A stretch of DNA of 23,265 nucleotides from Elainellaceae cyanobacterium (GCA_051117555.1 JBNPEG010000063.1:67880-91144), one strand, 5' to 3'; positions 5,881 through 20,678 are shown, numbered from the stretch's first letter. The notes: generated from the sequence alone by a model not told the origin. A program made the numbers and translations.

Positions 5881-6918
5881 ATGCTGGTTACTCGTCAACC
5901 CATCCTGAAACGGTTTTGGTATCCTGTCATTCCAACAGCAATGCTGGCTGAAAAGCCAGGAGGGTTTGAGCTATTAGGTCAAAAGATTGTGATTTGGCTA
6001 GATGACAACGGCATGCCAGCCGCTGCCGCCGATCGGTGTTGTCATCGGTCAGCTCAACTGTCGAAAGGTAGCCTCAGGAATGGCACCATCGTTTGCCCGT
6101 ATCATGGGTGGACATTTGACAGCACGGGGAAATGCCTCAAGGTGCCTCAGCTCAACGAGCAAGACCCAATTCCCAAAACCTATCAAATCAGGGCGTATCA
6201 GTGTCAAGAGCGCTACGGCTACGTGTGGGTGTGTTTGGGCGACCCGATTCAGCCCATTCCTGACATACCGGAAGCGAATGATCCTGATTTTCGACTGATT
6301 CCTGAATTTTATGAACCGTGGCGCTGTGCTGGGCTACGAGTGATGGAAAACGAGTTTGACCTTGCCCATCCCACATTTGTACACACAACAACGTTTGGCA
6401 GTACAGAGCATCCGATTCCCGACGAGATGGATCTGATAGAAACTGACTACGGAATTCGCGTCAGCGCCAAGCTAGGCGTTGTCAATCCTAAACTCCAGCA
6501 AAAGAATCTCAAGATGGATGCAGGACAAACCTTCAGAACGCTTGATATGGACTGGTTTATGCCGTTTACGTGCAAACTGCGAATTAACTATCCCAACGGG
6601 CTAGTTCATATCATTGTGAATACGACGACTCCCATCAATGATTCGTCGTCTCAAATCGTCCAATTTTGCTTGCGAAATGACACCGAAGCCGAAACAAAAG
6701 CGGTTGATGCGATCGCCTTTGATCGAGCCGTCACCCTTGAAGACAAAGCGATTTTAGAAACGACCGACTATGACGTGCCGCTCGAATCTCGATTTGAACA
6801 GCACATGATGACAGATAAGCCGGGGCTGATGATGCGCCGAAAGTTTGCAGCACTGCTCAAAGACTATGGTGAAACTGAACAAACGTTGAAGACGAGTGTG
6901 TCTTCGTCATCCAACTAG
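5881..6918 (+). CDS. Rieske non-heme iron oxygenase alpha subunit (VanA/demethylase-like)
   Basis: Rieske ligands CCHR...CPYHGW, mononuclear iron motif ENEFDLAHPTFVH and the distal EDKAILE. ATG at 5881. Confidence 0.9.
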   Translation: MLVTRQPILKRFWYPVIPTAMLAEKPGGFELLGQKIVIWLDDNGMPAAAADRCCHRSAQLSKGSLRNGTIVCPYHGWTFDSTGKCLKVPQLNEQDPIPKTYQIRAYQCQERYGYVWVCLGDPIQPIPDIPEANDPDFRLIPEFYEPWRCAGLRVMENEFDLAHPTFVHTTTFGSTEHPIPDEMDLIETDYGIRVSAKLGVVNPKLQQKNLKMDAGQTFRTLDMDWFMPFTCKLRINYPNGLVHIIVNTTTPINDSSSQIVQFCLRNDTEAETKAVDAIAFDRAVTLEDKAILETTDYDVPLESRFEQHMMTDKPGLMMRRKFAALLKDYGETEQTLKTSVSSSSN

Positions 6919-8795
6919 GGCGACTTTTTCCTCAGCGACTTTGCCATCTTATAAGCAGCCTTCAAGAAATGCAGCAGTTGGACGCTGATGCGATTGGGGA
7001 GGAGGTTTTGCCGTTCAAGGTCTAGCAGCTTAAATTTTACGATCAGCGCCATCAAATACGGAGACGTTTTCGGAATCGACGGCACATCGTCTTGATTTGA
7101 AAACACCACAAAGACTGAGTTGGCATATACCGGACGAAGCGACTGCATCACCCATGCCAGAGAAGGTGGATCGACTTCATCCAGTAATCCCTTATGCACC
7201 ACGACCCATTTCAGCCCGGTTTTATTCGCAAACGGCATTAAGTGACTGCGATAGTGATTGGGAAAGCGTTTGATAAATTCGGTCGGAGCAACCACCTTAT
7301 CGTAGGGCTGAAGGGAGTGCTCGATAAAGCGGGCGACTTCAACCCAGTTGGGGTCATCACCGGGGAACTGATAGTGAGCATATTCTTCAGTAGCGGGTTG
7401 AGCATGAACCGGAAAGATCTGTACTCGGTGGAATGCAAGCCCAACCTTGCGTGCATCATCTTGGGACGGATCGAGCCGAACGGTACGATTCACGGTGAAC
7501 CGAAATCGAGTCAGCGCACTGCGTTCTAGAATTGGTTTAGGAATCACGCCTTGCAACACGGCTAGCGTACCTCGCTTGAGAATGGGTTCTAGCTCAATCG
7601 AATCCCCATTGACCTCTAGCACTAGGCTATCCAAGATGTCGGGAGCAGCCGCATTGATGATGCGAAGCCGAATCATCAAATCATCCTGACTAGACAGCGG
7701 AAAGTCTAGCGTCGAAACAGGGGACGGGCCGCTCCAGCGAAAGGGAGTTCCGCCGGTATCTAAGCCATCCTGCAAATGCCATCCAGAGCCGGCTCCTTCC
7801 CTGAGATGCCATCCTATCCCTGAAATGGCACGATTGAATGCAAAATCGACGGACTGACGAGGCGTGGGGTTGGATTGAATCCAACGCTGCTCGTAATGCT
7901 TTTCAAGCAACGGAATCAGCACGCCTAGATCGAGGGGCTCTGCCTGAGTGGATAGGATTTTGAGATCGGCATGAATGGGGCTATCGAACGTTGTTTGCAA
8001 ATCGTCGAGCATGGCATACATATGCTCTTGAAAGATGGCCTGAGCATGGTCATAAAGCTGAGAATCGAGCTGATTGAGCGTTAAGACTGCATCAATGATC
8101 TCTGGTGAAAGGTCATTCCGGCGCAGCTTTTTAGGGGCTTTATTTAACTCGCGTGACTGCACAAGGGGATACCACCCAAAGATGTAAGACAGCAGCAGCA
8201 GCGAATCTTGAAATCGCTCGGCTAGGCCGATAAACGCAAACTGATCGAGACGGTCTTTGGCAATCCGAAGCAGCTCATCGTCACTGAGATCGGGTGCAGT
8301 TCCTAAGATGCCTCTGGCGGGAAATCGATCGCGCTGCTTGATCTCCTCAAGACCGAGATCAAAGGCAATACTGCGAGTTTGTAAATTTGTGATCGCTAAC
8401 CGTGTTTCGGGATGAACGATAAAATCTTTGAAGCTCATGTTGTGAGCCGTCACGATTTTATTGAGGCGATCGCGCGGTTCTCTGCGGATATGCTCGTAGT
8501 GGGAGACTGCTCTCTCGATTGGATCTCTCAATACGGTGATATGAACCGGCGGTTTGCCAATAAATTTATGAATCGAATAGCCAAAATGACCTCGAAGAAA
8601 CCGATACTGCTGGAAGCGGTCGGGAGAGTTTTTAGCAATTTTTAGAAGCTGTCGCCAGAATCGAGCCGGACAGATAGCATCTGGGTCAAATTTTTCATCA
8701 AGCGTAAAATACAGCGTTGTTCCCGCAGTTTTTTGAATATGCAGGAAATAGAGCTGATCATCCTCATGCAACTGATATTGAATGTGCGTGCTCAT
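6915..8795 (-). CDS. Multidomain sulfotransferase (Sulfotransfer_2-like N-terminal domain), paralog A
   Basis: 5'-phosphosulfate-binding loop YFLHIQKTAGTT, RGHFGY, 3'-phosphate-binding motif VLRDPIERAVSHY and LNQLDSQLY, followed by about 350 aa of extra domains. Confidence 0.85.
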   Translation of the reverse strand: MSTHIQYQLHEDDQLYFLHIQKTAGTTLYFTLDEKFDPDAICPARFWRQLLKIAKNSPDRFQQYRFLRGHFGYSIHKFIGKPPVHITVLRDPIERAVSHYEHIRREPRDRLNKIVTAHNMSFKDFIVHPETRLAITNLQTRSIAFDLGLEEIKQRDRFPARGILGTAPDLSDDELLRIAKDRLDQFAFIGLAERFQDSLLLLSYIFGWYPLVQSRELNKAPKKLRRNDLSPEIIDAVLTLNQLDSQLYDHAQAIFQEHMYAMLDDLQTTFDSPIHADLKILSTQAEPLDLGVLIPLLEKHYEQRWIQSNPTPRQSVDFAFNRAISGIGWHLREGAGSGWHLQDGLDTGGTPFRWSGPSPVSTLDFPLSSQDDLMIRLRIINAAAPDILDSLVLEVNGDSIELEPILKRGTLAVLQGVIPKPILERSALTRFRFTVNRTVRLDPSQDDARKVGLAFHRVQIFPVHAQPATEEYAHYQFPGDDPNWVEVARFIEHSLQPYDKVVAPTEFIKRFPNHYRSHLMPFANKTGLKWVVVHKGLLDEVDPPSLAWVMQSLRPVYANSVFVVFSNQDDVPSIPKTSPYLMALIVKFKLLDLERQNLLPNRISVQLLHFLKAAYKMAKSLRKKSP

Positions 8796-8834
8796 AGATT
8801 ACTTAATTGATGGCCATTTATATAAATCATTTAT

Positions 8835-9068
8835 GCCTTACGCGCTCGCGTTAGGTCGCTGAACGTGTGTAGATCTCCTGATTGACTGATAAATCTGCTC
8901 TTGTAGGCTGGGTTGAACAAAGTGAAACCCAACGCCAGTCTAGGTTTCGTTGGTTTACGCTGTTGCTACCAACCTACGCGAGAATCATAGTTTTAAGAGT
9001 TTCGTCAGTCAATCAGGTAGATCCCGCGCGGCACGCGGGATCTACACACAAATCTGAGCCCGTAGGGC
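8835..9068 (-). mobile_element. Hairpin-containing miniature element (copy 2), interrupted by a nested MITE and overlapping the 3' end of sulfotransferase B
   Basis: Termini gccttacg / cgtagggc are flanked by TAT on both sides. Removing 8877-9017 and one duplicated target copy restores the hairpin gtgtgtagatcccgcg-cggca-cgcgggatctacacac and homology to 4693-4785. Confidence 0.7.
8877..9017. mobile_element. 141-bp MITE with 13-bp perfect terminal inverted repeats and an internal GTAG-type REP pair
   Basis: TIRs cctgattgactga (8877-8889) and tcagtcaatcagg (9005-9017). Flanks tagatct / tagatcc form a 6-of-7 direct repeat. Internal gtaggctgggttgaac...aacccaac ... gttgg...ccaacctac (8903-8977). 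Confidence 0.8.
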
Positions 9069-10862
9069 TATAGTCAACGTTTTCAGACGTTTGATGATCA
9101 TTGTTTTTGTGAACGCCCGAACATGAGTTGACAAATATCCCAGTGAATTCAGATCAGTACGCTTGGAAAAAATAATAAAAACAGGATTAGCAAACACAGG
9201 CTTAAACGCCTTCATTAGCCAAGCTAGCTGGTTTAAATCGGTCATTTGCAGATTTTCCTTATGAAATAAAACCCAGTCTATTGGAGGTCGATCCACTAGG
9301 CGATCGCCCTCTGCTTGAAACTGCTGAGGAAATATGCGAATAAATTCACCCGGAGCTATTATTCTTTCCTGGCTTTTGATGTGTTGTTTGACAAATTCAG
9401 CCGCCTCGATCCACCCCAAATCATGGTCGGGGAATGGCAGTAAAAACGACGTGCATTGCTTATCCTCTGACTGAGGCACATCCGGAAAAATCTGAACTCG
9501 ATGCAGGGCAACTCCAACCTGCCGAGTATCCAGATTATTAGAGTCAATAGACTGTAACGTCCGGGTTTCAGGAACCTTAAATGTCAGGCGAATAAAATCG
9601 CGAGTATCATCGAACTGATTGGCTTGAATAGAGCTCTGAAGAATTGTCAAGGTTTCTCTAACTAGAATCGCACGTAGGAAAAGACGTTGATTATTAGCGC
9701 TAATTTCGAGGCTCTCTAGGGGGTCAGGCAAGACCGAATTAATCATCCAAAATCGGACAATAAATGGGGCGGCATTCTGTAATCGAAAATCTAGTGTTGA
9801 GATGGGGGTAGGGCCAGTCCAGCGAAAGGCAATTACGTGTTGATTGTCGCCTTCTCGCTGATGCCATCCATGCCCGTGAATGGGCTGTGATGCAACAAAA
9901 TCGACTGACATCTGAGGTGGTGTATCCTCAACAAATCGGCGCTCATAATGCTGAATCAACGATGGGATGAGTCCATCAGCATGTGCGAAGCCCTCATTAT
10001 GATTAGCGATCTCACCGGTGAGATCGCGAGGATGACTTGAATCAGATATCAAAGTTTGTACCATCTGCTGAAAGCTGCGTTTAAATAGATGGGTTGCGTA
10101 GTCATATAGCTCAATATCCAGTCGATTCAGCTCCCGTGCCTCGTCCAATACATCAGGAGAGACATCCGGCCGACGCCGTTGAGGTGCTTGATTAAGCCGT
10201 TCAACCGGCTCGAACGGATACCAGCCAAAAATGTAAGACAGCAGCAGCATTGAATCTTGAAAGTGCTCAACCAGCCCCACAAAGGCAAATTCATCGAGCC
10301 GTTGCTTGGCGATCGCCAGCAGTTCATCATCGGGCATCTCCAGAAGAGTCATCTCGGTGATGCCATCCAGACCGCATGGGGTTGTGGCATGGCGATTACG
10401 GGCGCGAATATGGGGCGATCGCACATCCATATCCATAACCAGACTGCGAGTTTGCAAATTTGCAACCGTACATCGCGTATCAGGGCTGCGAATAAAATCA
10501 GCCAAGCTCATGGTCTGTGACGCAACAAACTGATGAAAAAAATCGTAGGGGTGACGGCAGACACTTTCGTAGTACGAAATAACCCGATCGATAGGATTTC
10601 TCAGCACCGTAATATAGACAGGCTTTTTGTCTAACACCCAATGAATGGGATAGCCAAAATGTCCTCTAAAAAATCGATAGTTATTACGGGACTCAGGTGA
10701 AAGATCGAGCAACTCTGACCAAAATCGAGCCGGACAAATGTCATCCAGCTCAAACTTGCCATCCAGGAGATGATACAGCGTCGTTCCTGCTGTCTTAGGA
10801 ATGTGCAGGAAATAAAGCAAATCATGAGGCTGTAGCCGATACTCAAGGGCAGAAGATTTCAT
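9042..10862 (-). CDS. Multidomain sulfotransferase (Sulfotransfer_2-like N-terminal domain), paralog B
   Basis: YFLHIPKTAGTT, RGHFGY, VLRNPIDRVISYY and LNRLDIELY. Colinear with paralog A over nearly the whole length. Confidence 0.85.
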   Translation of the reverse strand: MKSSALEYRLQPHDLLYFLHIPKTAGTTLYHLLDGKFELDDICPARFWSELLDLSPESRNNYRFFRGHFGYPIHWVLDKKPVYITVLRNPIDRVISYYESVCRHPYDFFHQFVASQTMSLADFIRSPDTRCTVANLQTRSLVMDMDVRSPHIRARNRHATTPCGLDGITEMTLLEMPDDELLAIAKQRLDEFAFVGLVEHFQDSMLLLSYIFGWYPFEPVERLNQAPQRRRPDVSPDVLDEARELNRLDIELYDYATHLFKRSFQQMVQTLISDSSHPRDLTGEIANHNEGFAHADGLIPSLIQHYERRFVEDTPPQMSVDFVASQPIHGHGWHQREGDNQHVIAFRWTGPTPISTLDFRLQNAAPFIVRFWMINSVLPDPLESLEISANNQRLFLRAILVRETLTILQSSIQANQFDDTRDFIRLTFKVPETRTLQSIDSNNLDTRQVGVALHRVQIFPDVPQSEDKQCTSFLLPFPDHDLGWIEAAEFVKQHIKSQERIIAPGEFIRIFPQQFQAEGDRLVDRPPIDWVLFHKENLQMTDLNQLAWLMKAFKPVFANPVFIIFSKRTDLNSLGYLSTHVRAFTKTMIIKRLKTLTIALRAQICV

Positions 10863-10895
10863 TCAAACTAGACTCATTTTGTCTCGCAGACTAGA

Positions 10896-11022
10896 TATAG
10901 CAATCCTAAATCATTCATGAAATGGGAGTGCGGGCATCTTGCCCGCGTTGGCAACGCCTCTCCATCAGGAGAAGCGAGACGCTCGCACTGGAAATGCTTA
11001 CAAATCATTTGGGATTGCTATA
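10896..11022. mobile_element. 127-bp MITE with TA-flanked terminal inverted repeats and internal REP-like palindromes
   Basis: tatagcaatcctaaatcatt ... aatcatttgggattgctata. Internal gcgggcatcttgcccgc and gcgagacgctcgc hairpins are bracketed by agtgcg / cgcact. Confidence 0.8.
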
Positions 11023-11027
11023 GGTAC

Positions 11028-12365
11028 TTAAAGACATCGAGAATATACATCAAGCAGGCGTTTACTATAGTTTTCTTGGCTAAAGTGTTGTGCCCTTTCT
11101 TTCCCAGCATTTGAAAGAGACAATTGGAGCGCTTCATCTTGCAATAATTTCTCTAGCGTTTCGCGCATATTTCTCATGTCGTACGGATCGACATATAATG
11201 CTGCATCGCCGCAAATCTCCGGCAAAGACGACGCATTGGACGTAATCACCGGACACCCGAACGACATTGCTTCGAGGGGCGGAAGCCCAAAGCCTTCATA
11301 TAGAGACGGAAAAACAAAACAGGTTGCCCCAGAATAGAGATATCGCAGGTCTTCGCTGCTGACATATTCTAATAACTTGACTTTTCGTTGAGCCTGTCGT
11401 TGCCCAAAGATAGCATCAATTTTGCCAATTTCATTCGCCCATAACCACCCGCGTTTGCCTACAATCACCAGAGGGATTTTGGTGTCGATTCCTGAAAATG
11501 CATCGATTAACCGACCCACATTTTTCTTAGGTTCAATGGCACCTACGAAGAGAATATAATCCTTAGGTTTAAGCTTAAATTTCTTGAGGTACTCAGGGAG
11601 AACCTGTTCTTCATTTTGTGAGAATGGCCGGAGCGCAATGGGCTGATACGTCACTCGAACCTTGTCTGGATCGACATCAAAAATAGACAAGATATCGTGT
11701 TTAGAATTTTCTGACACCGTTGCGATTAGATCTGAATGTTTGATGGCATCCTGAATCAACTTATAGAACATCTTTTTGTTGTCTAATGTTGTATACGGAA
11801 GCCGTAGGGGAATCAGGTCATGAATGGTGGTAATCTTTTTGGTTCCTTTCACCCGAACGGGTAATGGATAGGTTGCATGAAAAATGTCGACCTTTTTAGG
11901 AATTGAAACGCTTGATGATAATTCTAAAAACTTAAACAACGAATTAGAATTTTGGTAGCAACCGGCTAAATTAAAGACTTCTACCGAGTCAATAAAACTA
12001 GCAACTGAATTAATAAAACTACTATTTACCGGGCTTTTGACAACGATGCCCTTGGTGTTGATGGGCATCGCCTTTCGAGGAATTCCTCCTGCTGTCAAGG
12101 CTGCATTGGTAAACCATTTAGCGGCTTTGAACGCGCTGAATCGTTGAAGAAGACCGGGTTCTTCAGTCAAAACATCGAAGAATAAAATTTCATCGAGGGT
12201 GGGATTATTGGTGTTGCTAATTTCTCGACTAAAGAGAATATCAACCCCAGCTCCAAGCTGCTTTAACGTTTTAATGAGGCTAATTCCATAGGTTTTGATT
12301 CCGGTTCCTTGGATGAGTTGGAGATTGTATCCATCCACCAACACGTTGACGTCATTCAGATTCAT
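11028..12365 (-). CDS. Glycosyltransferase family 4 (GT-B fold, mannosyl/rhamnan-type)
   Basis: GTGIKTY, TTIHDLIPL, ATVSENSK, LFVGAIEPKKN and FPSLYEGFGLPPLEAMSFGCPVITSN (EX7E motif). Confidence 0.92.
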   Translation of the reverse strand: MNLNDVNVLVDGYNLQLIQGTGIKTYGISLIKTLKQLGAGVDILFSREISNTNNPTLDEILFFDVLTEEPGLLQRFSAFKAAKWFTNAALTAGGIPRKAMPINTKGIVVKSPVNSSFINSVASFIDSVEVFNLAGCYQNSNSLFKFLELSSSVSIPKKVDIFHATYPLPVRVKGTKKITTIHDLIPLRLPYTTLDNKKMFYKLIQDAIKHSDLIATVSENSKHDILSIFDVDPDKVRVTYQPIALRPFSQNEEQVLPEYLKKFKLKPKDYILFVGAIEPKKNVGRLIDAFSGIDTKIPLVIVGKRGWLWANEIGKIDAIFGQRQAQRKVKLLEYVSSEDLRYLYSGATCFVFPSLYEGFGLPPLEAMSFGCPVITSNASSLPEICGDAALYVDPYDMRNMRETLEKLLQDEALQLSLSNAGKERAQHFSQENYSKRLLDVYSRCL

Positions 12366-12453
12366 AGTTATCTCAAGCCCATGATGTAATAACTAGCAAC
12401 TTAGCGCGTAGGGTGCGATCGCCCGGTAATGGGTTGAATAGAGCAGCTCAGGT

Positions 12454-13770
12454 TCAAGGGGTGGGTTCTGGCTGCCGCTCATGGCTCGATCGCCACGAGG
12501 ATGGCATATAGATTAATCCACGAGTTGTCTTTGGCGCCGTTACGTCGTGACTCGATATGACTGTTAAAGCGGCAGCATTATCAGATTTGAACAACAGCGT
12601 ATCACCGTCCGGAGACGACTCGGTTAGCGTAACATGAACCTTGTGTCGTCCTTGGCGAAGCAATAGCTCTGGAATAATGCAATCGATGTAGCTCTCTCCG
12701 TGTGACTCTAAATATGCATCAGCCTGATGAAATGATGATTCAAAACTGCTGATGCAAATCTGATCGCCGACGGTCAGCAGTTGCACCACTGATTTGAGGG
12801 TTTGAATGCGCCGATGTGCGACAAATCGAATCCGAATAATCAGGGTTTCTAACGTGCGGAACTGCTCTTGAGATATTCCAATTGTGTTGAGCAGTTCTAT
12901 CCCAATTACGTCAAAAAATTCAGGTTCCTGATGATGAACAGTTGCTTTGGATTTGGCGCGGTTCGAAAGCCGTCGTTTCCTCCGTTTCATGCGAGGCGGC
13001 AGTTCATTATCCGGGAGTTCATAAAACTGCTCGCAGACTTCAACAGCAGGACCAATGGCTTTGGTCACACCTTTATGCAACAGCAACGCTCGATGGCAGA
13101 GCTGCTCAACTTTTGGCACCAGATGCGACACAAATACAATAGTGGCTCCCGAACTGACAATTTCTTCCATGCGCTGGAAACATTTGTCCTTAAAGCGCCA
13201 GTCACCCGTTGCTAAGACCTCATCGAGGAGTAAGACATCAGGCTCTACCAGATTAACTGCAACCGAAAACCCCAATCGCCCTTTCATTCCTGAACTGTAG
13301 GTCTTGACGGGCGCGTCAATAAAATCGCCGATGTCAGCAAAGTCAAGAATTTCATCGAGTTTGTGATCGACGTCTCGCTTTGGAATTCCCAGGATGGCGG
13401 CGTTGGTATAAATATTTTCTCGCCCGGTCAGGAGGGGTTGAAAGCCTGCCCCTAAGGTAATCAGGGCTCCCACCCTGCCTCGCAGCGTGATTTTTCCTTG
13501 GGTGGGTTTCAGAAGGCCATGCAGCAGCTTGAGTAGAGTAGTTTTTCCAGAACCGTTAACGCCGATAATGCCGAATGCCTCTCCTCGCTTTAACTCAAAG
13601 TTGACATCAGTCAATGCCCAAAATTCTTTTTTACGAAGAGTCGTGCTGGGGTTACGCTTTAGCAGCAGTTCGTCGGCGAGGTCTTGCAAGCCATACCGGA
13701 GCGATCGCTTCAAATCTTTGCAGTATTTCTTTGAAACCCCTTCTACACTTACTGTAATTTCGTCATACAT
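12454..13770 (-). CDS. wzt: Polysaccharide ABC transporter ATP-binding protein with a C-terminal extension (Wzt_C-like)
   Basis: FWALTDVNFEL, Walker A GVNGSGKTT, GAGFQPLLTGREN, signature YSSGMKGRLGF, Walker B LLLDEVLATGD and VSH, plus a ~150-aa beta-rich C-terminal domain. Confidence 0.92.
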   Translation of the reverse strand: MYDEITVSVEGVSKKYCKDLKRSLRYGLQDLADELLLKRNPSTTLRKKEFWALTDVNFELKRGEAFGIIGVNGSGKTTLLKLLHGLLKPTQGKITLRGRVGALITLGAGFQPLLTGRENIYTNAAILGIPKRDVDHKLDEILDFADIGDFIDAPVKTYSSGMKGRLGFSVAVNLVEPDVLLLDEVLATGDWRFKDKCFQRMEEIVSSGATIVFVSHLVPKVEQLCHRALLLHKGVTKAIGPAVEVCEQFYELPDNELPPRMKRRKRRLSNRAKSKATVHHQEPEFFDVIGIELLNTIGISQEQFRTLETLIIRIRFVAHRRIQTLKSVVQLLTVGDQICISSFESSFHQADAYLESHGESYIDCIIPELLLRQGRHKVHVTLTESSPDGDTLLFKSDNAAALTVISSHDVTAPKTTRGLIYMPSSWRSSHERQPEPTP

Positions 13771-13785
13771 TCAGATATCACTCCC

Positions 13786-14649
13786 TTAGCGCTCAATCAA
13801 AATCGGAATCGCGACACGGTATATGACCCATCCCACCAGCAGGAGCACCAACGCAATGACGGCAATGAAGACAAAAAAGATGGGATTGTTTAACTGCCCT
13901 TTCAGAGTGAGATCAATCGTACCGCTTAGCAATGGGGTCACAGGATTCAAATCCACCAGCATGGTGTAGGGCCAATTTTCAGGAGGGGGATACACCACAG
14001 GAGTCAGAAAAAACCAAAACCGAGTCAGGAACGGCATAGCCGACGCGACATCGGTGTAAAGGCTACCGACAGGCACAAGAAATAGCCCCAATCCAATGCC
14101 CAAAAACATGAGTAAGAGAGCTGCAAACGGAGCGAGAAGAATGCCCCACGTCACCTGGATCTGGAACCCAACGAAGACAACCGCTAGCACTAAAAACTGA
14201 ATCGCTTGGTCAAACAGCAATTCACCCACGGCGGCTAACAATAACCCCTCAATCGGCATTCGAATGGTCGTCAACAACTGTTTGCCGTCTCGCATCGCTT
14301 TGAGAGGGAGCTCAAAGCTTCTGGCAAACAAGATCCACAGAGCCGTCGCAAACATGACATAAATTGGATATGGAATCGACGTATCGCGAATGGCGATTAC
14401 GCCACTGTTTTTCAGCGCTGTCGATGTCGCCGCGACGATGATGGGCGGCAAGAATGCCCAAAGTGGACCCAAGGCAGCCTGCCGATAGCGAATGCTGATG
14501 GCTTTGTAGAGTAGCTGCCAGGCAAGCTCTCTAGAGTTCAGCAAGTCTTGACCCATTTGCTTAATAAGCACGCTGGGTCGTCGTAGCTGACTCTCTGGAG
14601 TAAAGACAATAATCTCCTGCGAAGCGTTTGCGTCCCGTTCCAGATGCAA
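13786..14649 (-). CDS. wzm: Polysaccharide ABC transporter permease
   Basis: RYRQAALGPLWAFLPP, FFLTPVVYP and LNPVTPL motifs with about six hydrophobic segments. The TTG start is preceded by GAGGAGG at 7-nt spacing. The gene lies directly upstream of wzt. Confidence 0.92.
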   Translation of the reverse strand: MHLERDANASQEIIVFTPESQLRRPSVLIKQMGQDLLNSRELAWQLLYKAISIRYRQAALGPLWAFLPPIIVAATSTALKNSGVIAIRDTSIPYPIYVMFATALWILFARSFELPLKAMRDGKQLLTTIRMPIEGLLLAAVGELLFDQAIQFLVLAVVFVGFQIQVTWGILLAPFAALLLMFLGIGLGLFLVPVGSLYTDVASAMPFLTRFWFFLTPVVYPPPENWPYTMLVDLNPVTPLLSGTIDLTLKGQLNNPIFFVFIAVIALVLLLVGWVIYRVAIPILIER

Positions 14650-14872
14650 TGCGTTTCCTCCTCACGTCTTGGCGTTACATCAGCGTCACATCGTCGCATG
14701 TTAATTTTTTGAGACATGCTGGAGACGATAATACTCTATTCATTGCGTCCGGAAAACATTCGGGACAGAGGAGAAGACTCGACTGAATGTCTGATACGGT
14801 ATCTTATAGCGATTCGTCTCGGCTCGTTGTTTCGGGTGCGATCGCCCTTTCTGTGGTGTTCTCGTTAGGTCA

Positions 14873-15997
14873 ATGAGAGTAGCGGTTGTTCATGAGTGGT
14901 TGGTTAACTATGCCGGATCAGAACGGGTTGTAGAGCAAATTCTCTCCCTGTATCCTGATGCTGCACTCTATAGCCTGGTTAACTTTTTAGACGACTCCTC
15001 AACCGACTTTATTCATCATCGGTCAGTCCATACGTCATTTATTCAAAATCTGCCGTTTGCGACGCGCTCATTTCGCAGCTATTTACCGCTGATGCCCCTC
15101 GCGATTGAGCAGCTAGACGTGTCTGGCTACGATGTCGTAATTTCGAGCAGCCATGCCGTTGCGAAGGGCGTCATCACCCGAGCTGACCAGCTTCACATTA
15201 GCTATGTGCATACTCCGATTCGCTATGCCTGGGATTTGCAACACCAATATCTGCACGGAGCAGGGCTAAAGCACGGAATCAAAGGGGCGATCGCCCGTCT
15301 CATCCTGCACTATCTGCGGCTTTGGGATCTTGCCAGCGCCAACCGAGTCGATTATTTTGTTGCCAATTCGCATTATGTTGCCCGCCGCATCTGGAAAACG
15401 TATCGTCGCAGGGCTACGGTGATTTATCCGCCCGTTGCAGTGCAGCGGTTTGATCCTCATTGTCAGCGAGAAAATTTTTACTTCGTGCTCGCGCGCTTTG
15501 TGCCGTATAAGCAGGTTGAGCTGATTGTAGCGGCATTCGTTCGCTTGGGCTTGCCCCTCGTCGTCATGGGAGACGGCCCCGATGAACGCAAGCTTCGTCG
15601 CCTGGCTGCACCCAATATCCGGTTTCTTACCCCCCAGTCTGAGACAGTCGTCGCTAGCTATATGGCGCGATGTAAAGCTTTTGTGTATGCGGCAGAAGAA
15701 GATTTTGGCATTGCTGCCGTTGAAGCTCAAGCAGCGGGTGCGCCAGTAATTGCGTTCGGCAAAGGAGGCGTCACAGAAACGGTGATTCCTGGAAAGACCG
15801 GACTCTTTTTTGAAGAACAATCCGTCGAGAGTTTGATCAAGAGCATTAAAGAATTTGAATCCGGCGTCCATCAATTTAATCCGGATTATGCCCGACACAA
15901 TGCTGAACGATTCGCATCGGAACGATTCTGTCAAGAATTTTCTCAGTTCGTAGAACAAAAATGGACACATTTTCGGCGGGGTGATGGCATACAGTAG
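14873..15997 (+). CDS. Glycosyltransferase family 4 (WbaZ-like)
   Basis: MRVAVVHEWLVNYAGSERV, ISSSHAVAKG, YVHTPIRYAWD and EEDFGIAAVEAQAAGAPVIAFGKGG. Confidence 0.92.
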   Translation: MRVAVVHEWLVNYAGSERVVEQILSLYPDAALYSLVNFLDDSSTDFIHHRSVHTSFIQNLPFATRSFRSYLPLMPLAIEQLDVSGYDVVISSSHAVAKGVITRADQLHISYVHTPIRYAWDLQHQYLHGAGLKHGIKGAIARLILHYLRLWDLASANRVDYFVANSHYVARRIWKTYRRRATVIYPPVAVQRFDPHCQRENFYFVLARFVPYKQVELIVAAFVRLGLPLVVMGDGPDERKLRRLAAPNIRFLTPQSETVVASYMARCKAFVYAAEEDFGIAAVEAQAAGAPVIAFGKGGVTETVIPGKTGLFFEEQSVESLIKSIKEFESGVHQFNPDYARHNAERFASERFCQEFSQFVEQKWTHFRRGDGIQ

Positions 15998-16008
15998 TAG
16001 CGTGAGGA

Positions 16009-17466
16009 GTGAAAATTCGCATGCAGCTTAACCGCACGTTACGTCCGACTATTAAGGCGCTGACAGTTTCTACCCTGTCTTGGCCCACCATTGCGCTGAT
16101 GATGGGGGCCGATCTGATCGGGCTAGTCGTTTCTGGGATACTCAGCGTCCATCTTGGGCAGTTTTTTGATGGCCCCGATGTCAATCCTGAAATCTATTGG
16201 CAGCTTTGGCCTGTTTTGGGGCTTTTTATTTTGTCCTACGCGACATTTGGGCTCTATCCAGGGGTTGCGATTAGCCCAGTCGACGAATTGCGATGGATTA
16301 GCGTTTCGACGACGCTCATTTACCTAGTCTTGGGGTCTGCAATTTTCTTATTCCGTGAGGGAGAAATCTATTCGCGGGGTGCGTTCCTATTAGCGTGGGC
16401 GTTGTCGCTGTTTTTGGTGCATTTAAGCCGAGCATTGGTGCGATCGCTGTTTGCCTCCAAACGATGGTGGGGATATCCCGTAATTGTATTGGGCGCAGGC
16501 AAAACAGGTGATATGGTCATCCGGACGCTACAGCGTCGACCCCGTATTGGTCTAAAGCCGGTTTTGGTGCTGGATGATGACCCGAATAAGCGCGGCACCT
16601 TGCACGATGTGCCCGTTGTCGGAGGCGTTGAATTGGCCCCTCGATTGGCTCGGATTCGTCGCATTCCCTACGCCATTGTGGCGATGCCTGGAGTCCCGCG
16701 CGATCGCCTCCTCAACCTGCTCGAACGATATGGTCAGACGTTTGCTCATCTGCTGATCATTCCCGATTTGTTTGGGTTTTCGAGTTTGTGGGTGGCGGCT
16801 AAAGATCTAGGTGGCGTCTTAGGGCTCGAAGTCCGGCAGCAATTGCTGCTGCCAGGTCCACGGATTGCCAAGTTTTGTATTGATTTATCCTGTACTCTGA
16901 TTGGCGGAACGCTGCTGCTGCCTCTACTAGGGCTAATCATTATTTTGATTCGAATCGATTCACCCGGGCCTGTCTTCTATGGGCAGATCCGCATTGGGCA
17001 GCGCGGGCGAAAATTTAAAGCGTGGAAATTTCGCTCAATGGTGCAGAATGCAGACAAAGTTTTATCTGACTACCTCCAGCAGCATCCCGAACTGCGAGAC
17101 GCCTGGGAAACACATCACAAACTTCGAAAAGACCCCCGTGTGACCCGCGTGGGGAAGTTCTTACGGCGAACCAGCCTTGACGAACTGCCTCAACTCTGGA
17201 ATATTTTGCGAGGAGAAATGAGCCTCGTCGGCCCTCGTCCTATTGTGGATGAAGAACTCTGGCGATACGGAGATAAGTTTACGCTCTATACAAAGGTAAC
17301 GCCTGGCCTAACAGGGCTCTGGCAAGTGTCTGGGCGCAATGACATCACCTATGAAGAGCGGGTTAACCTAGACGCCTATTACGTCCGCAACTGGTCAGTT
17401 TGGCTCGATATCTACATTTTGATGCGTACCGTTTGGGTGGTGTTCGTTGGAGAAGGCGCATACTAG
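16009..17466 (+). CDS. wbaP: Undecaprenyl-phosphate hexose-1-phosphate transferase (WbaP-type initiating enzyme)
   Basis: Four N-terminal TM segments, a Rossmann-like VIVLGAGKTG and a catalytic domain (KFRSM, DPRVTRVGKFLRRTSLDELPQLWN, SLVGPRP, PGLTGLWQVSGRN). The start may be GTG 16009 or ATG 16021. Sugar specificity cannot be read from the sequence. Confidence 0.9.
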   Translation: MKIRMQLNRTLRPTIKALTVSTLSWPTIALMMGADLIGLVVSGILSVHLGQFFDGPDVNPEIYWQLWPVLGLFILSYATFGLYPGVAISPVDELRWISVSTTLIYLVLGSAIFLFREGEIYSRGAFLLAWALSLFLVHLSRALVRSLFASKRWWGYPVIVLGAGKTGDMVIRTLQRRPRIGLKPVLVLDDDPNKRGTLHDVPVVGGVELAPRLARIRRIPYAIVAMPGVPRDRLLNLLERYGQTFAHLLIIPDLFGFSSLWVAAKDLGGVLGLEVRQQLLLPGPRIAKFCIDLSCTLIGGTLLLPLLGLIIILIRIDSPGPVFYGQIRIGQRGRKFKAWKFRSMVQNADKVLSDYLQQHPELRDAWETHHKLRKDPRVTRVGKFLRRTSLDELPQLWNILRGEMSLVGPRPIVDEELWRYGDKFTLYTKVTPGLTGLWQVSGRNDITYEERVNLDAYYVRNWSVWLDIYILMRTVWVVFVGEGAY

Positions 17467-17476
17467 TGACGACCCG

Positions 17477-18796
17477 ATGCAATCTTCGCTGGGCTTGCGG
17501 CGCTGCCGAGCGCTGTTTCGCGTTAGCTTGATAGCGCTTCCCTATCTGTTTTATCCCAGTCTGCTGGGGCTCCTCGTTACCCTTATTGGCGTGCTTGTCG
17601 TTAAAGACCGCAGGCGATCGCTCGATCCCCTCACTCAAGCCAGTCTGATTGGCATCAGCATTCTTCTGGTGATCAGCAGCATGCTTGCCGTGAATCCAGG
17701 TGAAGCTTTCTTGCAGCTCAGCAATTTTCTGCCCTTCTTTTGGCTGTTCGCAACCTTGCCTACCTTAATTGGCACCTTCACTCGCTTAGAGCAGATTGCC
17801 ACTGATTTGGTGATTGCGGCGTTGCCAATTCACATCGTGGCTGCTGCTGAATATGTCCTCAAAGCATCATGGCTTCCCACAGAGCTAAGCCAGTGGTCAG
17901 TGGTCGACGCCATTCGCGCTGCTCCCCACAGGGGACGAGCGATGGTCATGTTTGACCACCCCAATACGTTAGCCAGCTATCTGGTGATTATTTTTGGGCT
18001 AGGGCTAGGACTTACTCTAAAGCGTCTCTTCTATGACAGCCCTCAAGAGAACAAGCCGTCTTTGCTGGGGTTCCGTCGTCCGGTGTCTAACCCACTTCTC
18101 TACCTAGCCACTGGCTTTAATCTATTGGGTTTGTTTGCATCGGGTTCGAGAAATGGATTGCTAGTTGCTATCTCTCAAATCATAGTTTTTGGACTTCTTG
18201 CAAAAGCCAAGCGCGTCATTTTGATTATTGGAACCGTGATGGTTTTTGGCATCATTGCCGGAACCGCCTGGTTGGGTTTGGGGCATCGCCCCCGTGCGAT
18301 TATCAACCTCGCAGACGACCCGCGCATCGGCATCTGGAAGATTGCGCTCGACTTAATTCGAGAACGCCCCTGGTTTGGATGGGGGTTGGGACATTTCAAG
18401 GTGCTCTATCCTCCCCGCCTGATTGACCCTACTTACCAGGAGGTGTTCCACCCGCACAATATCTGGTTGCTGCTCGGATCTGAAGCCGGATTGCTTGTGA
18501 TGATCCTGCTTACGGTGATGGTAGGCTACATTCTCTATCGAGGGATTCGTCTGCTGCGATCGCCCCGTCTCCCCCTCTCAGCCCACTGGATCATGATTGC
18601 CTATTTCCTAGCATTTGGGGGATGCGTGGTATTTGCCCTGTTTGATGTCACGTTTTACGACGCTCGCGTGAATGTGCTAAATTGGCTTGCTCTAGCCGGG
18701 ATCTATACACCCACCATCGTGGGCAATCAAGGGAACCATCGAGCGGGCAATCAGCTAGGTAAGCGATCGCCATCCACCCATTCCGAGCTTGATTGA
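17477..18796 (+). CDS. O-antigen ligase (WaaL/Wzy_C) family membrane protein
   Basis: Multiple TM helices with FDHPNTLASYL, SGSRNG, RIGIWKIALDLIRERPWFGWGLG and HPHNIWL. ATG at 17477 follows the wbaP stop by 10 nt. Confidence 0.85.
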   Translation: MQSSLGLRRCRALFRVSLIALPYLFYPSLLGLLVTLIGVLVVKDRRRSLDPLTQASLIGISILLVISSMLAVNPGEAFLQLSNFLPFFWLFATLPTLIGTFTRLEQIATDLVIAALPIHIVAAAEYVLKASWLPTELSQWSVVDAIRAAPHRGRAMVMFDHPNTLASYLVIIFGLGLGLTLKRLFYDSPQENKPSLLGFRRPVSNPLLYLATGFNLLGLFASGSRNGLLVAISQIIVFGLLAKAKRVILIIGTVMVFGIIAGTAWLGLGHRPRAIINLADDPRIGIWKIALDLIRERPWFGWGLGHFKVLYPPRLIDPTYQEVFHPHNIWLLLGSEAGLLVMILLTVMVGYILYRGIRLLRSPRLPLSAHWIMIAYFLAFGGCVVFALFDVTFYDARVNVLNWLALAGIYTPTIVGNQGNHRAGNQLGKRSPSTHSELD

Positions 18797-18840: not shown

Positions 18841-19125
18841 TTAATAGTTGTAGCGTTCTTCAAGATAGATTCGAACTTCATCTTCTGAGCTCAGTGTCCA
18901 CGAACGATCTGTCATCGGATCAAATACATGCCAATATTGATTACCGTGGCGATCGCGCGTTGCCCATATGCGTGGCTCGTCCCGATTCTCAAATGAATTT
19001 ATCAGAGTTTTCCAACCGTGGCGAAATGCCGATCCTAACTCCGCAAATTTTTTGAAAATATAGCGATCAAAATGTGGCCGGGAATTGGCATTTGTTTTTT
19101 TCAAAAATTGGGTTGAGCTTTTCAT
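18841..19125 (-). CDS. Small conserved-type cyanobacterial hypothetical protein
   Basis: ATG-started 94-aa ORF. The C-terminus EPRIW...RHGNQYWHVFDPMTDRSWTLSSEDEVRIYLEERY resembles a cyanobacterial hypothetical family as I recall it; this was not searched. Confidence 0.7.
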   Translation of the reverse strand: MKSSTQFLKKTNANSRPHFDRYIFKKFAELGSAFRHGWKTLINSFENRDEPRIWATRDRHGNQYWHVFDPMTDRSWTLSSEDEVRIYLEERYNY

Positions 19126-20018: not shown

Positions 20019-20678
20019 ATGACGCTTCAACCTGCCCAACGAACTAAGTTAGACGAATCAGATGACGCCCTATTCTACAGCTACCCCCGATTTGTCACTC
20101 ATGTGGATGAGGGATTTATTCAACACCTCGTCGAACTATATCGGGAACGGCTCAAACCCCACACGCGAGTTTTTGACATGATGAGCAGTTGGGTTTCGCA
20201 TCTGCCCGACGATGTAGAATTTGAACATGTTGAAGGGCATGGAATGAATGAAGAGGAGCTTGCCCGCAATCCCCAACTGGATCACTATTTTGTCCAAAAT
20301 TTAAATCAAAATCCGATTTTTCCACTAGCCGATCAATCATTTGACGCAGTGTTGAATACGGTATCGATTCAATATTTGCAGCACCCTGATCGAATCTTTG
20401 CAGAAATCTATCGCATTCTAAAGCCGGGCGGAATCGCAATCATTAGCTTCTCAAATCGGATGTTTTACCAGAAGGCAATTCAAGCATGGCGCGACGGGTC
20501 TGAACGCGACCGAGCCGAATTGGTCAAACGCTATTTCAGCACCGTTTCTGGCTTTAGCACCCCCGAAGTGATTATCCGTCAGCCATCGGTTCCTAGTTTC
20601 TTACAATATCTCGGTATACCGGGAGGCGATCCGTTTTATGCGGTGATCGCCTATCGAACTGCCCCTTCAGCGATTTGA
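20019..20678 (+). CDS. Class I SAM-dependent methyltransferase (Methyltransf_11-like)
   Basis: DDALFYSYPRFVTHVD, FDMMSSWVSHLP, GHGMNEEEL, SFDAVLNTVSIQYL and RILKPGG..IISFSNR. Confidence 0.88.
   Translation: MTLQPAQRTKLDESDDALFYSYPRFVTHVDEGFIQHLVELYRERLKPHTRVFDMMSSWVSHLPDDVEFEHVEGHGMNEEELARNPQLDHYFVQNLNQNPIFPLADQSFDAVLNTVSIQYLQHPDRIFAEIYRILKPGGIAIISFSNRMFYQKAIQAWRDGSERDRAELVKRYFSTVSGFSTPEVIIRQPSVPSFLQYLGIPGGDPFYAVIAYRTAPSAI

What the first reader, a model, noticed from the sequence alone, without database searches (positions are those of the whole stretch)
6915..18796. Candidate pathway for a sulfated, Wzm/Wzt-exported, ligase-transferred surface glycan
Seen: two divergent arms around a 223-bp gap. 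The minus arm is wzm, wzt (with C-terminal domain), GT4 and two sulfotransferases. The plus arm is GT4, wbaP-type transferase and an O-antigen ligase-family gene. Established: WbaP-type enzymes prime undecaprenyl phosphate, Wzm/Wzt flip finished chains and WaaL-family enzymes ligate them. In E. coli O9a/O8, WbdD caps the chain with methyl-phosphate or methyl and the Wzt C-terminal module reads the cap. The characterised cyanobacterial sulfated exopolysaccharide synechan uses a Wzx/Wzy-type system. Inference: this locus makes a sulfated O-antigen or protein/S-layer glycan by the ABC route, and sulfation may act as the chain-terminating cap or export signal. No Wza/Wzc/KpsD/KpsE or PAPS-synthesis genes are in the window. 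Whether the two arms act in one pathway is unproven.
Basis: partly seen in the sequence, partly recalled or inferred. Interest (0 to 1): 0.78.

Follow-up and report, generated by a model that had tools for sequence, protein, structure and literature searches.

The report
Sulfated surface-glycan ABC-export locus, cyanobacterium
A filamentous cyanobacterium carries a gene set that most likely builds a lipid-linked sugar chain, adds sulfate to it inside the cell, pumps it out through an ABC transporter and attaches it to a surface acceptor; this is a variant of a pathway type already predicted for cyanobacteria, not a new kind of system.

Summary
The two 'sulfotransferases' are old paralogs (41% identity) of an uncharacterised three-domain family. 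It has a heparan-sulfate-2-O/6-O-sulfotransferase-like catalytic domain with intact PAPS motifs, a CBM35-like jelly roll and a small alpha/beta 'X' domain. Wzt carries a diverged Wzt_C-type carbohydrate-binding domain.

Comparative genomics supports one pathway. The modules are linked in different combinations in four cyanobacterial families. In one complete genome the only Wzm lies beside GT4b-WbaP-Wzy_C and the only Wzt beside the sulfotransferase. The three-domain sulfotransferase and GT4a co-occur exactly, in 9 of 41 genomes.

The plus arm is more widespread. It may be a shared prime/adapt/ligate module.

'Sulfate as chain-terminating cap' is not excluded but is the weaker reading. There is no coiled-coil ruler, there are two to three retained paralogs, and one lineage has a CBD-less Wzt. 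Sulfotransferase genes in ABC-type clusters of cyanobacteria are already noted in print (PMC8205485), and this scan has seen comparable loci elsewhere. Moderate interest.

The parts
6915..8795 (-). ST1. Three-domain sulfotransferase: catalytic domain ~1-270, CBM35-like jelly roll ~310-465, X domain ~476-595, basic C-terminal helices 579-624.
   Evidence: Pfam PF03567 above cut-off. Model pLDDT 84.9. Foldseek hits HS 6-O/2-O-sulfotransferases and CBM35/XBM. PAPS motifs and His aligned to HS6ST/HS2ST.
9042..10862 (-). ST2. Paralog of ST1 with the same three domains.
   Evidence: 41% identity over 597 aligned positions, E 9e-151. PF03567 34 bits and PF06990 29.2 bits. The ST2 lineage has its own ortholog in G003.
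11028..12365 (-). GT4a, a retaining GT4-family glycosyltransferase and the constant partner of the three-domain sulfotransferases.
   Evidence: PF00534 116 bits. Orthologs occur in exactly the 9 of 41 genomes that hold the three-domain ST. It lies adjacent to an ST in G000, G002, G003, G005 and G031.
12454..13770 (-). Wzt: ABC nucleotide-binding subunit (~48-252) plus a C-terminal carbohydrate-binding-type domain (~285-438).
   Evidence: The NBD is closest to Aquifex aeolicus Wzt, 6amx/7k2t, E 1e-58. Wzt_C scores 22.4 bits, sub-threshold. The CTD model's top Foldseek hits are Wzt CBDs 2r5o, 8dky, 6o14 and 5hnp. Orthologs carry a precomputed PF14524 label.
13786..14649 (-). Wzm, the ABC-2 permease.
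   Evidence: PF01061 40 bits. 44% identical to the second Wzm of the genome on C204.
14650..14872 (.). 223-bp divergent intergenic region.
   Evidence: ORF coordinates. No consensus promoter-like site was reported inside it. The same divergent layout is present in G002 and G039, and as Wzm only in G019.
14873..15997 (+). GT4b glycosyltransferase, first gene of the conserved GT4b-WbaP-Wzy_C operon.
   Evidence: PF00534 84.6 bits. It lies with the WbaP ortholog in G002, G003, G005, G013, G019, G031, G037 and G039 at 64-93% identity.
16009..17466 (+). WbaP-type polyprenyl-phosphate hexose-1-phosphate transferase (priming enzyme).
   Evidence: TIGR03022 547 bits above the 403 cut-off; PF02397 222 bits. 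Orthologs at E<=1e-100 in 15 of 41 genomes.
17447..18796 (+). Wzy_C-family membrane protein, a candidate WaaL-type ligase or O-oligosaccharyltransferase. The likely true start is the ATG at about 17477.
   Evidence: PF04932 58.5 bits. It is not IctB (43 bits, cut-off 366). The other three Wzy_C genes of the genome are IctB or lie in Wzy-type EPS clusters.

Best explanation
The locus encodes a second ABC-transporter-dependent glycan pathway of this cyanobacterium. WbaP puts a hexose-1-phosphate on undecaprenyl phosphate. GT4b adds an adaptor sugar and GT4a extends the chain. The cytoplasmic, PAPS-dependent sulfotransferases ST1 and ST2 hold the glycan with a CBM35-like module and each sulfate a different position. 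Wzm/Wzt, whose C-terminal domain binds the finished glycan, export it. The Wzy_C-family protein then transfers it to a periplasmic acceptor: lipid A-core is most likely, a surface protein is possible. The minus arm (Wzm-Wzt-GT4a-STs) is the glycan-specific export and tailoring cassette. The plus arm (GT4b-WbaP-Wzy_C) is an older, more widespread prime/adapt/ligate module that may also serve the genome's other Wzm/Wzt cluster. Shown here: gene identities, folds, catalytic motifs and comparative linkage. Inferred: order of steps, substrates, sulfation sites and acceptor.
For: Sulfotransferases. The family profile hits HS 6-O-ST (E 2.7e-20) and HS 2-O-ST (1.3e-10). The PKTxGTT, RxPxxRxxS and 'GH' motifs align to those enzymes, and T27, R68, H70, R90 and S98 are invariant in 44 sequences. 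Fold matches to HS6ST/HS2ST and to CBM35/XBM have probability 1.0. There is no signal peptide or TM segment in the sequence, and an APS kinase is in the genome.

Exporter. The Wzt NBD is closest to A. aeolicus Wzt. The CTD fold's top hits are Wzt CBDs.

Coupling.
- G002 has the same layout.
- G039 has MT-TPP-GT4a-Wzt-Wzm <> GT4b-WbaP-Wzy_C, and G013 matches it across two contig ends.
- G003 has Wzm-Wzt-GT4a-ST-ST-ST.
- G005 and G031 have ST >< GT4a.
- G019 has Wzm <> GT4b-WbaP-Wzy_C and Wzt-ST 270 kb apart. These are the only Wzm and the only Wzt-type NBD found there.
- GT4a orthologs occur in 9 of 41 genomes, the same 9 that hold the three-domain ST. All 9 also hold the WbaP ortholog, which occurs in 15 of 41.

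Several sulfation sites. The ST1 and ST2 lineages each have an ortholog in G003.

Shared module. Of four Wzy_C genes in G000, one is IctB (598 bits) and two sit in Wzy/OPX-type EPS clusters. A canonical Wzm-Wzt(Wzt_C 47 bits) cluster with five GTs but no ligase within the 20 kb scanned lies on C204.
Against: There is no chemistry: sulfate on any glycan of this organism is unproven. Only two single-module GT4 enzymes are present, so a long polymer is not assured. The arms are unlinked in G003, G005 and G031, and the plus arm occurs in six genomes without the ST/GT4a pair. It can therefore work without the minus arm. The genomes compared are kin and the four families may be close, so co-occurrence overstates independence. 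The Wzy_C protein scored far below the RfaL model (20 bits, cut-off 277) and matched no solved chain at E<=10, so ligase versus polymerase versus protein OTase is unresolved. The Wzt_C Pfam score is below its cut-off and the CTD model is only moderately confident (pLDDT 68). Gene calls in relatives come from my own simple ORF picker.
Confidence: 0.55

Rival explanations
1. One reading: sulfate is the non-reducing-end cap. One ST terminates chain growth, and the Wzt C-terminal domain reads the sulfated end and licenses export, as methyl, phosphomethyl or Kdo do in E. coli O8/O9a and Klebsiella O12/O4/O7.
For: Wzt has a CBD-type domain. Per PMC11231755 (passages read), every terminated OPS studied has a CBM on Wzt. 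The STs are the only non-glycosyl tailoring enzymes in the cassette in G000, G002 and G003. In G039/G013 the orthologous cassette has a TPP enzyme downstream of GT4a (plus an FkbM methyltransferase in G039) in the slot that holds STs here. Their Wzt CTD is only 39-40% identical, against 79% for the NBD. The ST carries a CBM-like domain, as predicted for the Klebsiella O7 terminator ORF6.
Against: There is no coiled-coil ruler: the model has only two short terminal helices, while the abstract of PMC11231755 calls the coiled coil characteristic of terminators. Two to three anciently diverged STs are kept in tandem, more than a single cap needs. In G019 the Wzt directly upstream of the ST is NBD-only, 278 aa. 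G039 and G013 keep three-domain STs elsewhere. No multi-module polymerase is present. Faster divergence of a peripheral domain is expected anyway.
Confidence: 0.2
2. The two arms are separate systems that happen to be neighbours. GT4b-WbaP-Wzy_C makes or ligates another glycan, and the Wzm-Wzt-GT4a-ST cassette uses a different priming enzyme (the genome has five Bac_transf genes).
For: The cassette stands alone in G003. GT4b-WbaP-Wzy_C stands without Wzm/Wzt within about 10 kb in G005, G031, G037 and G011. There are five PF02397 genes in G000. WbaP-type primers are classically paired with Wzx/Wzy routes (own knowledge).
Against: The same divergent juxtaposition is seen in f1 and f11, and Wzm alone sits beside the plus arm in f17, where it is the genome's only Wzm. 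All 9 ST/GT4a genomes hold the WbaP ortholog. No Wzx was found next to the plus arm in the loci scanned. A WbaP homolog with Wzm/Wzt and a Wzy_C transferase is an established combination in Geobacillus S-layer glycosylation (PMC2943079, passages read).
Confidence: 0.2
3. Same pathway, other destination. The glycan is O-linked to an S-layer protein, pilin or other surface protein by the Wzy_C protein acting as an oligosaccharyltransferase. Alternatively it is released as capsular or extracellular sulfated polysaccharide.
For: The gene content matches the G. stearothermophilus slg system: WsaP = WbaP homolog, Wzm/Wzt, WsaB with a Wzy_C domain. The second-best NCBIfam hit of the Wzy_C protein is a putative O-glycosylation ligase (33.6 bits, below cut-off). 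Sulfated polysaccharides of cyanobacteria are known as EPS/CPS, and an ABC-type cluster was proposed for a sulfated CPS (PMC8205485).
Against: No acceptor protein gene, TPR partner, KpsE/KpsD or OPX/PCP gene is in the window. The other Wzy_C genes of the genome are accounted for otherwise, which leaves this one as the candidate LPS ligase. In G003 a PagL-like lipid A deacylase gene lies next to GT4b-WbaP, a weak hint only.
Confidence: 0.25

Closest known systems
ABC-transporter-dependent O-polysaccharide systems with a CBD-bearing Wzt (E. coli O9a/O8, Klebsiella O12/O4/O7, Aquifex aeolicus WzmWzt)
   Same: Wzm permease. A Wzt NBD closest in sequence to A. aeolicus Wzt. A C-terminal jelly-roll domain whose best fold matches are the Wzt CBDs 2r5o, 8dky and 5hnp. 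GT4-family transferases, tailoring enzymes in the same cassette, and a ligase-family gene.
   Different: The primer is WbaP-type, not WecA-type. There is no multi-module polymerase and no coiled-coil terminator. The tailoring chemistry is sulfation. The word stem 'sulf' has 0 occurrences in the main text of PMC11231755. The census of terminator chemistries it cites (Mann et al. 2019, Glycobiology) could not be read.
Geobacillus stearothermophilus NRS 2004/3a S-layer glycan (slg) pathway
   Same: A WbaP homolog (WsaP) combined with Wzm/Wzt and a Wzy_C-domain transferase (WsaB). A non-carbohydrate modification made in the cytoplasm before export (PMC2943079).
   Different: That system is Gram-positive, makes a rhamnan, uses a methyl cap from a domain of the polymerase WsaE, and has an S-layer protein gene in the cluster. 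Here there are no rhamnose genes, no target protein gene, and free-standing sulfotransferases.
Synechocystis xss (synechan) cluster and the ABC-type sulfotransferase clusters catalogued with it (Maeda et al. 2021, PMC8205485)
   Same: Cyanobacterial glycan locus with two sulfotransferases, one of them of the PF03567 class. [quoted passage not shown]
   Different: xss is Wzx/Wzy/PCP-dependent with eight GTs and makes a free EPS. This locus has Wzm/Wzt, two GTs, a ligase-family gene, and sulfotransferases with extra CBM-like and X domains. I could not see the figure supplement that lists the ABC-type clusters, so this exact locus type may already be drawn there.
Animal heparan sulfate 2-O- and 6-O-sulfotransferases
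   Same: Closest solved relatives of the catalytic domain by profile and by fold, with shared PAPS-binding and His motifs.
   Different: 18-21% identity. The bacterial proteins add a CBM35-like domain and the X domain. They are predicted to be cytoplasmic enzymes acting on a lipid-linked glycan.

Membership tests
Wzm/Wzt ABC-transporter-dependent glycan pathway | ABC-2 permease plus Wzt-type NBD encoded together | tested here: met
   PF01061 40 bits and PF00005 77 bits; the genes are 15 bp apart. The NBD's best PDB matches are A. aeolicus Wzt, then TarH/TagH.
Wzm/Wzt ABC-transporter-dependent glycan pathway | Polyprenol-phosphate priming enzyme and cytoplasmic glycosyltransferases | tested here: met
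   WbaP TIGR03022 547 bits above cut-off; two GT4 genes. That they feed this transporter rests on synteny.
Wzt_C carbohydrate-binding domain (PF14524) | Match to the family model above its gathering score | tested here: not met
   22.4 bits and 25.3 bits against a cut-off of 30.4. The G003 ortholog scores 26.2 bits. Orthologs carry a precomputed PF14524 label.
Wzt_C carbohydrate-binding domain (PF14524) | Jelly-roll fold like solved Wzt CBDs | tested here: met
   Model pLDDT 68. Foldseek ranks 1-3 and 5-10 are Wzt CBDs (2r5o, 8dky, 6o14, 8dl0, 5hnp, 5hno), probability 1.0, TM 0.46-0.54. Moderate confidence.
Polymerase-terminator (capped) O-PS systems of the WbdD/WbbB type | Terminator protein with a coiled-coil molecular ruler | tested here: not met
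   The ST1 model has only helices 579-595 and 601-624 after the X domain. The feature is as stated in PMC11231755.
Polymerase-terminator (capped) O-PS systems of the WbdD/WbbB type | Export requires the terminal cap, read by the Wzt CBD | not testable with these tools
   Needs binding and export assays.
PAPS-dependent carbohydrate sulfotransferase (Sulfotransfer_2, HS2ST/HS6ST-like) | Family model above cut-off, 5'-PSB and 3'-PB motifs, catalytic His, fold | tested here: met
   PF03567 26.7 and 34.0 bits against a cut-off of 22. Motifs aligned and invariant. Fold match. Activity and acceptor not testable here.
WbaP / polyprenyl-phosphate hexose-1-phosphate transferase | Full-length match to TIGR03022 above cut-off | tested here: met
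   547.1 bits against 403, covering residues 34-485. The sugar specificity (Gal or other) is not established.
WaaL O-antigen ligase | Wzy_C domain, plus evidence that it ligates rather than polymerises | tested here: inconclusive
   PF04932 58.5 bits. RfaL model 20 bits against 277. No PDB sequence match at E<=10. No Wzx beside it, and the other Wzy_C genes are assigned elsewhere.
xss-type (Wzx/Wzy) sulfated EPS cluster | Wzx flippase, Wzy polymerase, PCP/OPX | tested here: not met
   None of these domains is in the window ORFs. Clusters of that type lie elsewhere in G000 on C52 and C120.

The most novel reading that the evidence does not exclude
Sulfate is a new chain-terminating and export-licensing cap. 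A CBM-bearing sulfotransferase without a coiled-coil ruler ends the chain, and the diverged Wzt C-terminal domain recognises the sulfated non-reducing end. The cap chemistry would be swapped between lineages: STs in f1, with methyl as the guessed alternative in f11, where the slot holds a TPP enzyme plus, in G039, an FkbM methyltransferase. The Wzt domain would diverge with it. This would add a fourth cap chemistry and a ruler-free terminator architecture to ABC-dependent glycan assembly.
Probability: 0.2. Interest if true: 0.75.

Novelty: new variant of a known kind. Interest (0 to 1): 0.45.

Why it matters
Bacterial sulfated surface glycans are barely characterised outside the Wzx/Wzy-dependent synechan. 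A compact, comparatively well-delimited ABC-route cassette (Wzm, Wzt-CBD, one GT4, two to three sulfotransferases) with its likely primer and ligase gives a small, testable gene set for making and exporting a sulfated lipid-linked glycan.

The three-domain sulfotransferase family has 110 relatives. Its CBM-like and X modules also occur on methyl-, pyruvyl- and glycosyl-transferases and on Wzy_C proteins. This points to shared substrate-handling modules among glycan-tailoring enzymes.

The locus also offers a direct test of whether sulfate can serve as an export cap.

Tried and rejected
- Complex prediction of GT4a with ST1 residues 305-626 gave no answer (score 0.00, controls not run). It is neither for nor against binding.
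- The look-up of sequencing runs listed no RNA holder: 4 DNA metagenome runs hold part of the stretch, best share 0.42. Read laying was therefore not used and nothing is known on expression.
- The promoter/terminator scan was no better than shuffles: 12 promoter-like sites against 16.4 expected, 14 terminator-like against 12.8.
- A word-based homolog search with the Wzt CTD returned only 4 proteins, so the CTD alignment for folding was shallow (8 rows).
- Protein-atlas feature hits for the X domain (DUF2079, scores 0.81-0.83) are below the level at which they mean anything. Its structural hits to GT-C-type membrane proteins (TM 0.42-0.49) are leads only.
- The Wzy_C protein gave no match to solved structures by sequence.
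- The census paper on terminator chemistries (Mann, Kimber, Whitfield 2019) is not held. A full-text search for its title phrase together with 'sulfotransferase' found 0 papers. Whether that census already lists sulfotransferase terminators stays open.
- Considered and rejected: an xss-type Wzx/Wzy system (no Wzx, PCP or OPX here).
- Considered and rejected: the Wzy_C gene as IctB (43 bits against a cut-off of 366; the real IctB is on C54).

Full report
OBSERVATION. The window is G000:C189:67880-91144. ORF listing and Pfam/NCBIfam scans confirm every element of the finding at the stated coordinates.

- Minus strand: ST1 (6915-8795), ST2 (9042-10862), GT4a (11028-12365), Wzt (12454-13770) and Wzm (13786-14649).
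- A 223-bp gap at 14650-14872.
- Plus strand: GT4b (14873-15997), WbaP (16009-17466; TIGR03022 547 bits, cut-off 403) and a Wzy_C-family gene (17447-18796; PF04932 58.5 bits).

The flanks are unrelated housekeeping genes: ClpB, ArsC-like, DUF2237 and a Rieske oxygenase upstream; a small methyltransferase, DUF4278 and an SDR downstream. No OPX, PCP or PAPS-synthesis gene is in the window. An APS kinase lies on contig C22.

THE SULFOTRANSFERASES. ST1 and ST2 are 41% identical over 597 aligned positions, so they share a full-length architecture of about 600 residues. Pfam sees only the N-terminal ~260 residues.

A search of 5.8 billion proteins gave 110 relatives. Almost all are unnamed or called 'sulfotransferase family 2 domain-containing'. 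The names given are mostly cyanobacterial (Elainellaceae, Leptolyngbyaceae, Oculatellaceae).

A 44-sequence alignment (A1) gave a confident model (pLDDT 84.9).
- The profile matches heparan sulfate 6-O- and 2-O-sulfotransferases (E 2.7e-20 and 1.3e-10).
- The PAPS 5'-phosphosulfate loop (hIpKTaGtT), the 3'-phosphate motif (LRxPixRviS) and the 'GH' catalytic motif align to them. They are invariant or nearly so in the family.
- Foldseek places the middle domain (~310-465) with CBM35 and xylan-binding modules (7ehg, 2w1w, 2w47; probability 1.0).
- The last ~150 residues form a small alpha/beta 'X' domain plus two basic helices.

An exhaustive HMMER search with residues 305-626 found 762 representative clusters at E<=1e-3, 237 at 1e-10 and 32 at 1e-30. 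I hand-picked 45 of the best 150 for unusual length or domain position and scanned them with Pfam.

| Pfam result | Number of 45 |
|---|---|
| Sulfotransferases (one of these also has a pyruvyl-transferase domain) | 10 |
| Methyltransferases (4 FkbM, 2 Methyltransf_11) | 6 |
| Wzy_C proteins with the CBM-like domain at the C-terminus | 3 |
| Glycosyltransferases | 4 |
| Pyruvyl transferase | 1 |
| Radical-SAM protein | 1 |
| No Pfam match | 20 |

Both accessory domains are therefore mobile modules of glycan-tailoring enzymes. In this genome a 420-aa FkbM methyltransferase with the X domain at its N-terminus lies 17 kb upstream (C189:49272-50534).

THE EXPORTER. The Wzt NBD is most similar to Aquifex aeolicus Wzt (E 1.6e-58), then to TarH/TagH. 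The C-terminal ~150 residues match Pfam Wzt_C below threshold (22-25 bits).

A model built on 8 sequences is of moderate confidence (pLDDT 68). Its best fold matches are the solved Wzt carbohydrate-binding domains of E. coli O9a, A. aeolicus and the O12 system.

Against the orthologs in G003, G039 and G013, the NBD is 89%, 79% and 79% identical. The C-terminal domain is only 55%, 40% and 39% identical.

The genome has a second, canonical Wzm-Wzt pair (Wzt_C 47-48 bits) on C204, beside four GT2 and one GT4 gene. The window therefore holds an additional exporter, not the only one.

ARE THE ARMS ONE PATHWAY? I searched 40 relatives plus the genome itself.

| Gene | Genomes with a match (of 41) |
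|---|---|
| Full-length three-domain ST (E < 1e-40) | 9: G000-G003, G005, G013, G019, G031, G039. Four further genomes have only weak or catalytic-domain-only hits. |
| GT4a ortholog (E <= 1e-60) | exactly the same 9 |
| WbaP ortholog (E <= 1e-100) | 15, including all 9 |
| Window-type Wzm (57-98% identity) | 6: G000-G003, G013, G039 |

GT4b-WbaP-Wzy_C, or parts of it, is a conserved operon in families f1, f3, f9, f11 and f17.

The modules are joined differently in different lineages.
- G002: as in the window.
- G039: FkbM-MT, TPP enzyme, GT4a, Wzt, Wzm <> GT4b, WbaP, Wzy_C, with the STs on another contig.
- G013: the same, apart from the methyltransferase, split over two contig ends.
- G003: trpA ... 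Wzm-Wzt-GT4a-ST-ST-ST ... lepA. GT4b-WbaP is on contig C48. The Wzy_C ortholog, with one internal TGA, is on C108.
- G005 and G031: ST convergent with GT4a. In G005, GT4b-WbaP-Wzy_C lies about 96 kb away on the same contig; in G031 it is on another contig.
- G019 (one complete contig): an ABC-2 permease divergent from GT4b-WbaP-Wzy_C, and a 278-aa NBD-only Wzt directly upstream of the ST 270 kb away. These are the only Wzm (E<=1e-10) and the only Wzt-type NBD (E<=1e-40) found in that genome.

A transporter whose two subunits are split between the two modules is the strongest single argument that the modules cooperate.

Also in G019, the GT4a ortholog is an 853-aa fusion of the X domain, a GT2 domain and the GT4 domain.

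Against obligatory coupling: the arms are apart in G003, G005 and G031, and six genomes have the WbaP ortholog without ST/GT4a. These genomes are relatives, so the counts are not independent trials.

ROLE OF THE PLUS ARM. G000 has four Wzy_C genes.
- C54 is IctB (598 bits, cut-off 366).
- C52 lies among three GT2 genes, a Sulfotransfer_3 gene and two GT4 genes.
- C120 lies beside OPX- and PCP-like genes.

The window's copy is the remaining candidate for a WaaL-type ligase. I saw no ligase within the 20 kb scanned around the C204 Wzm/Wzt genes. Together with its wider distribution and high conservation (WbaP 59-98% identical across the 14 other genomes that hold it), this suggests the plus arm is a shared prime/adapt/ligate module. 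The minus arm would be one glycan-specific export and tailoring cassette that plugs into it. This is inference.

CAP OR DECORATION?

For a cap:
- Wzt has a CBD. In the Klebsiella/E. coli prototypes every terminated O-PS goes with a CBM on Wzt (PMC11231755, passages read).
- The slot after GT4a holds STs in f1, but a TPP enzyme (plus an FkbM methyltransferase in G039) in f11, where the Wzt C-terminal domain is most diverged.

Against a cap:
- That paper describes a coiled-coil ruler as characteristic of terminators, and the ST model has none.
- The ST1 and ST2 lineages each have their own ortholog in G003, which has a third ST as well. A third ST-GT4 pair is kept on another contig in G000, G002 and G003. 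That is more enzymes than one cap needs.
- The G019 Wzt has no CBD.
- There is no multi-module polymerase.

I put the cap reading at about 0.2 and multi-site decoration of a short or modest chain as more likely.

LITERATURE.
- Maeda et al. [quoted passage not shown] They suggest an ABC-type cluster for a sulfated CPS of Arthrospira. None was tested. I could not see the figure supplement.
- A sulfotransferase-domain ORF next to wzt is recorded, unexplained, in Aeromonas salmonicida, whose O-antigen shows no sulfate (PMC4483657, passages).
- The WbaP + Wzm/Wzt + Wzy_C-transferase combination is established for Geobacillus S-layer glycosylation (PMC2943079, passages).
- Full-text searches for sulfotransferase + Wzt + cyanobacteria found 2 papers.
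- Sulfotransferase + O-antigen + chain termination + ABC transporter found 2 papers.
- Sulfated + O-antigen + sulfotransferase + lipopolysaccharide + Wzm found 1 paper.
- I read passages in three of these papers (PMC4390846, PMC4483657, PMC11231755) and saw no sulfate cap or this ST family. The others (PMC12267927 and the review PMC11976392) I saw only as search listings. The Mann et al. 2019 census could not be read.
- This scan has noted sulfotransferase-rich Wzm/Wzt loci before on other DNA.

VERDICT. The pathway reading and the coupling of the arms are supported by comparative genomics. The cap idea is possible but not favoured, and the acceptor is unresolved. The locus is a new variant of a known kind of system. 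Its value is a compact, testable gene set and a previously undescribed three-domain sulfotransferase family.

Noticed in passing
window 1-1626 (+): Right-handed beta-helix protein, open at the window's start (PF13229 30 bits). It has a weak, sub-threshold N-terminal hit to chondroitinase B (17.8 bits), a lyase of a sulfated glycan. It lies 5 kb from the locus. Relation unknown.
   Followed up: no
window 18841-19125 (-): 94-aa ORF with no family, convergent with the Wzy_C gene. It is kept next to the Wzy_C ortholog in G002 (87% identity) and in G003 on contig C108 (45%), although G003 has lost the rest of the linkage.
   Followed up: partly
window 20019-20678 (+): Class I SAM methyltransferase (PF08241). 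Its G003 ortholog (73% identity) lies about 5 kb from the third ST-GT4 pair on G003:C64. This is a possible further tailoring enzyme of the system.
   Followed up: no
G000:C146:1440-4381 (L024): Third three-domain sulfotransferase paralog (619 aa) directly beside a different 356-aa GT4. The pair is kept in G002:C68 and G003:C64. ST-GT4 pairs look like a repeated unit.
   Followed up: partly
G000:C52:409-8512 (L051): A separate cluster of three GT2 genes, a Sulfotransfer_3 gene, a Wzy_C gene and two GT4 genes on a short contig. The genome has at least one more sulfated-glycan locus, of the Wzy type.
   Followed up: no
G019:C1:1616950-1619511 (L046:4951-7512): 853-aa fusion of the X domain, a GT2 domain and the GT4a ortholog. 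A Rosetta-stone hint that the X domain works with GT4a.
   Followed up: partly
G000:C189:49272-50534 and 56730-58827 (L042): FkbM methyltransferase with the X domain at its N-terminus. GDP-mannose 4,6-dehydratase and a GDP-fucose-synthase-like epimerase lie 9-18 kb upstream of the window. These are possible donor-sugar and tailoring genes.
   Followed up: no
G003:C108:4807-6048: The Wzy_C ortholog of G003 has one internal TGA. This could be a pseudogene, a sequencing error or a split gene, in the one lineage where the arms are fully unlinked.
   Followed up: no
proteins P0136, P0184, P0175, P0178: Large proteins (1037-1458 aa) with three to five copies of the CBM-like domain. Most have no Pfam family; one has a radical-SAM/SPASM N-terminus.
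   Followed up: no
G003:C48:10375-11391 (L036): A PagL-like lipid A 3-O-deacylase gene lies convergent with GT4b-WbaP in G003. This is a weak hint that the plus arm is LPS-related.
   Followed up: no
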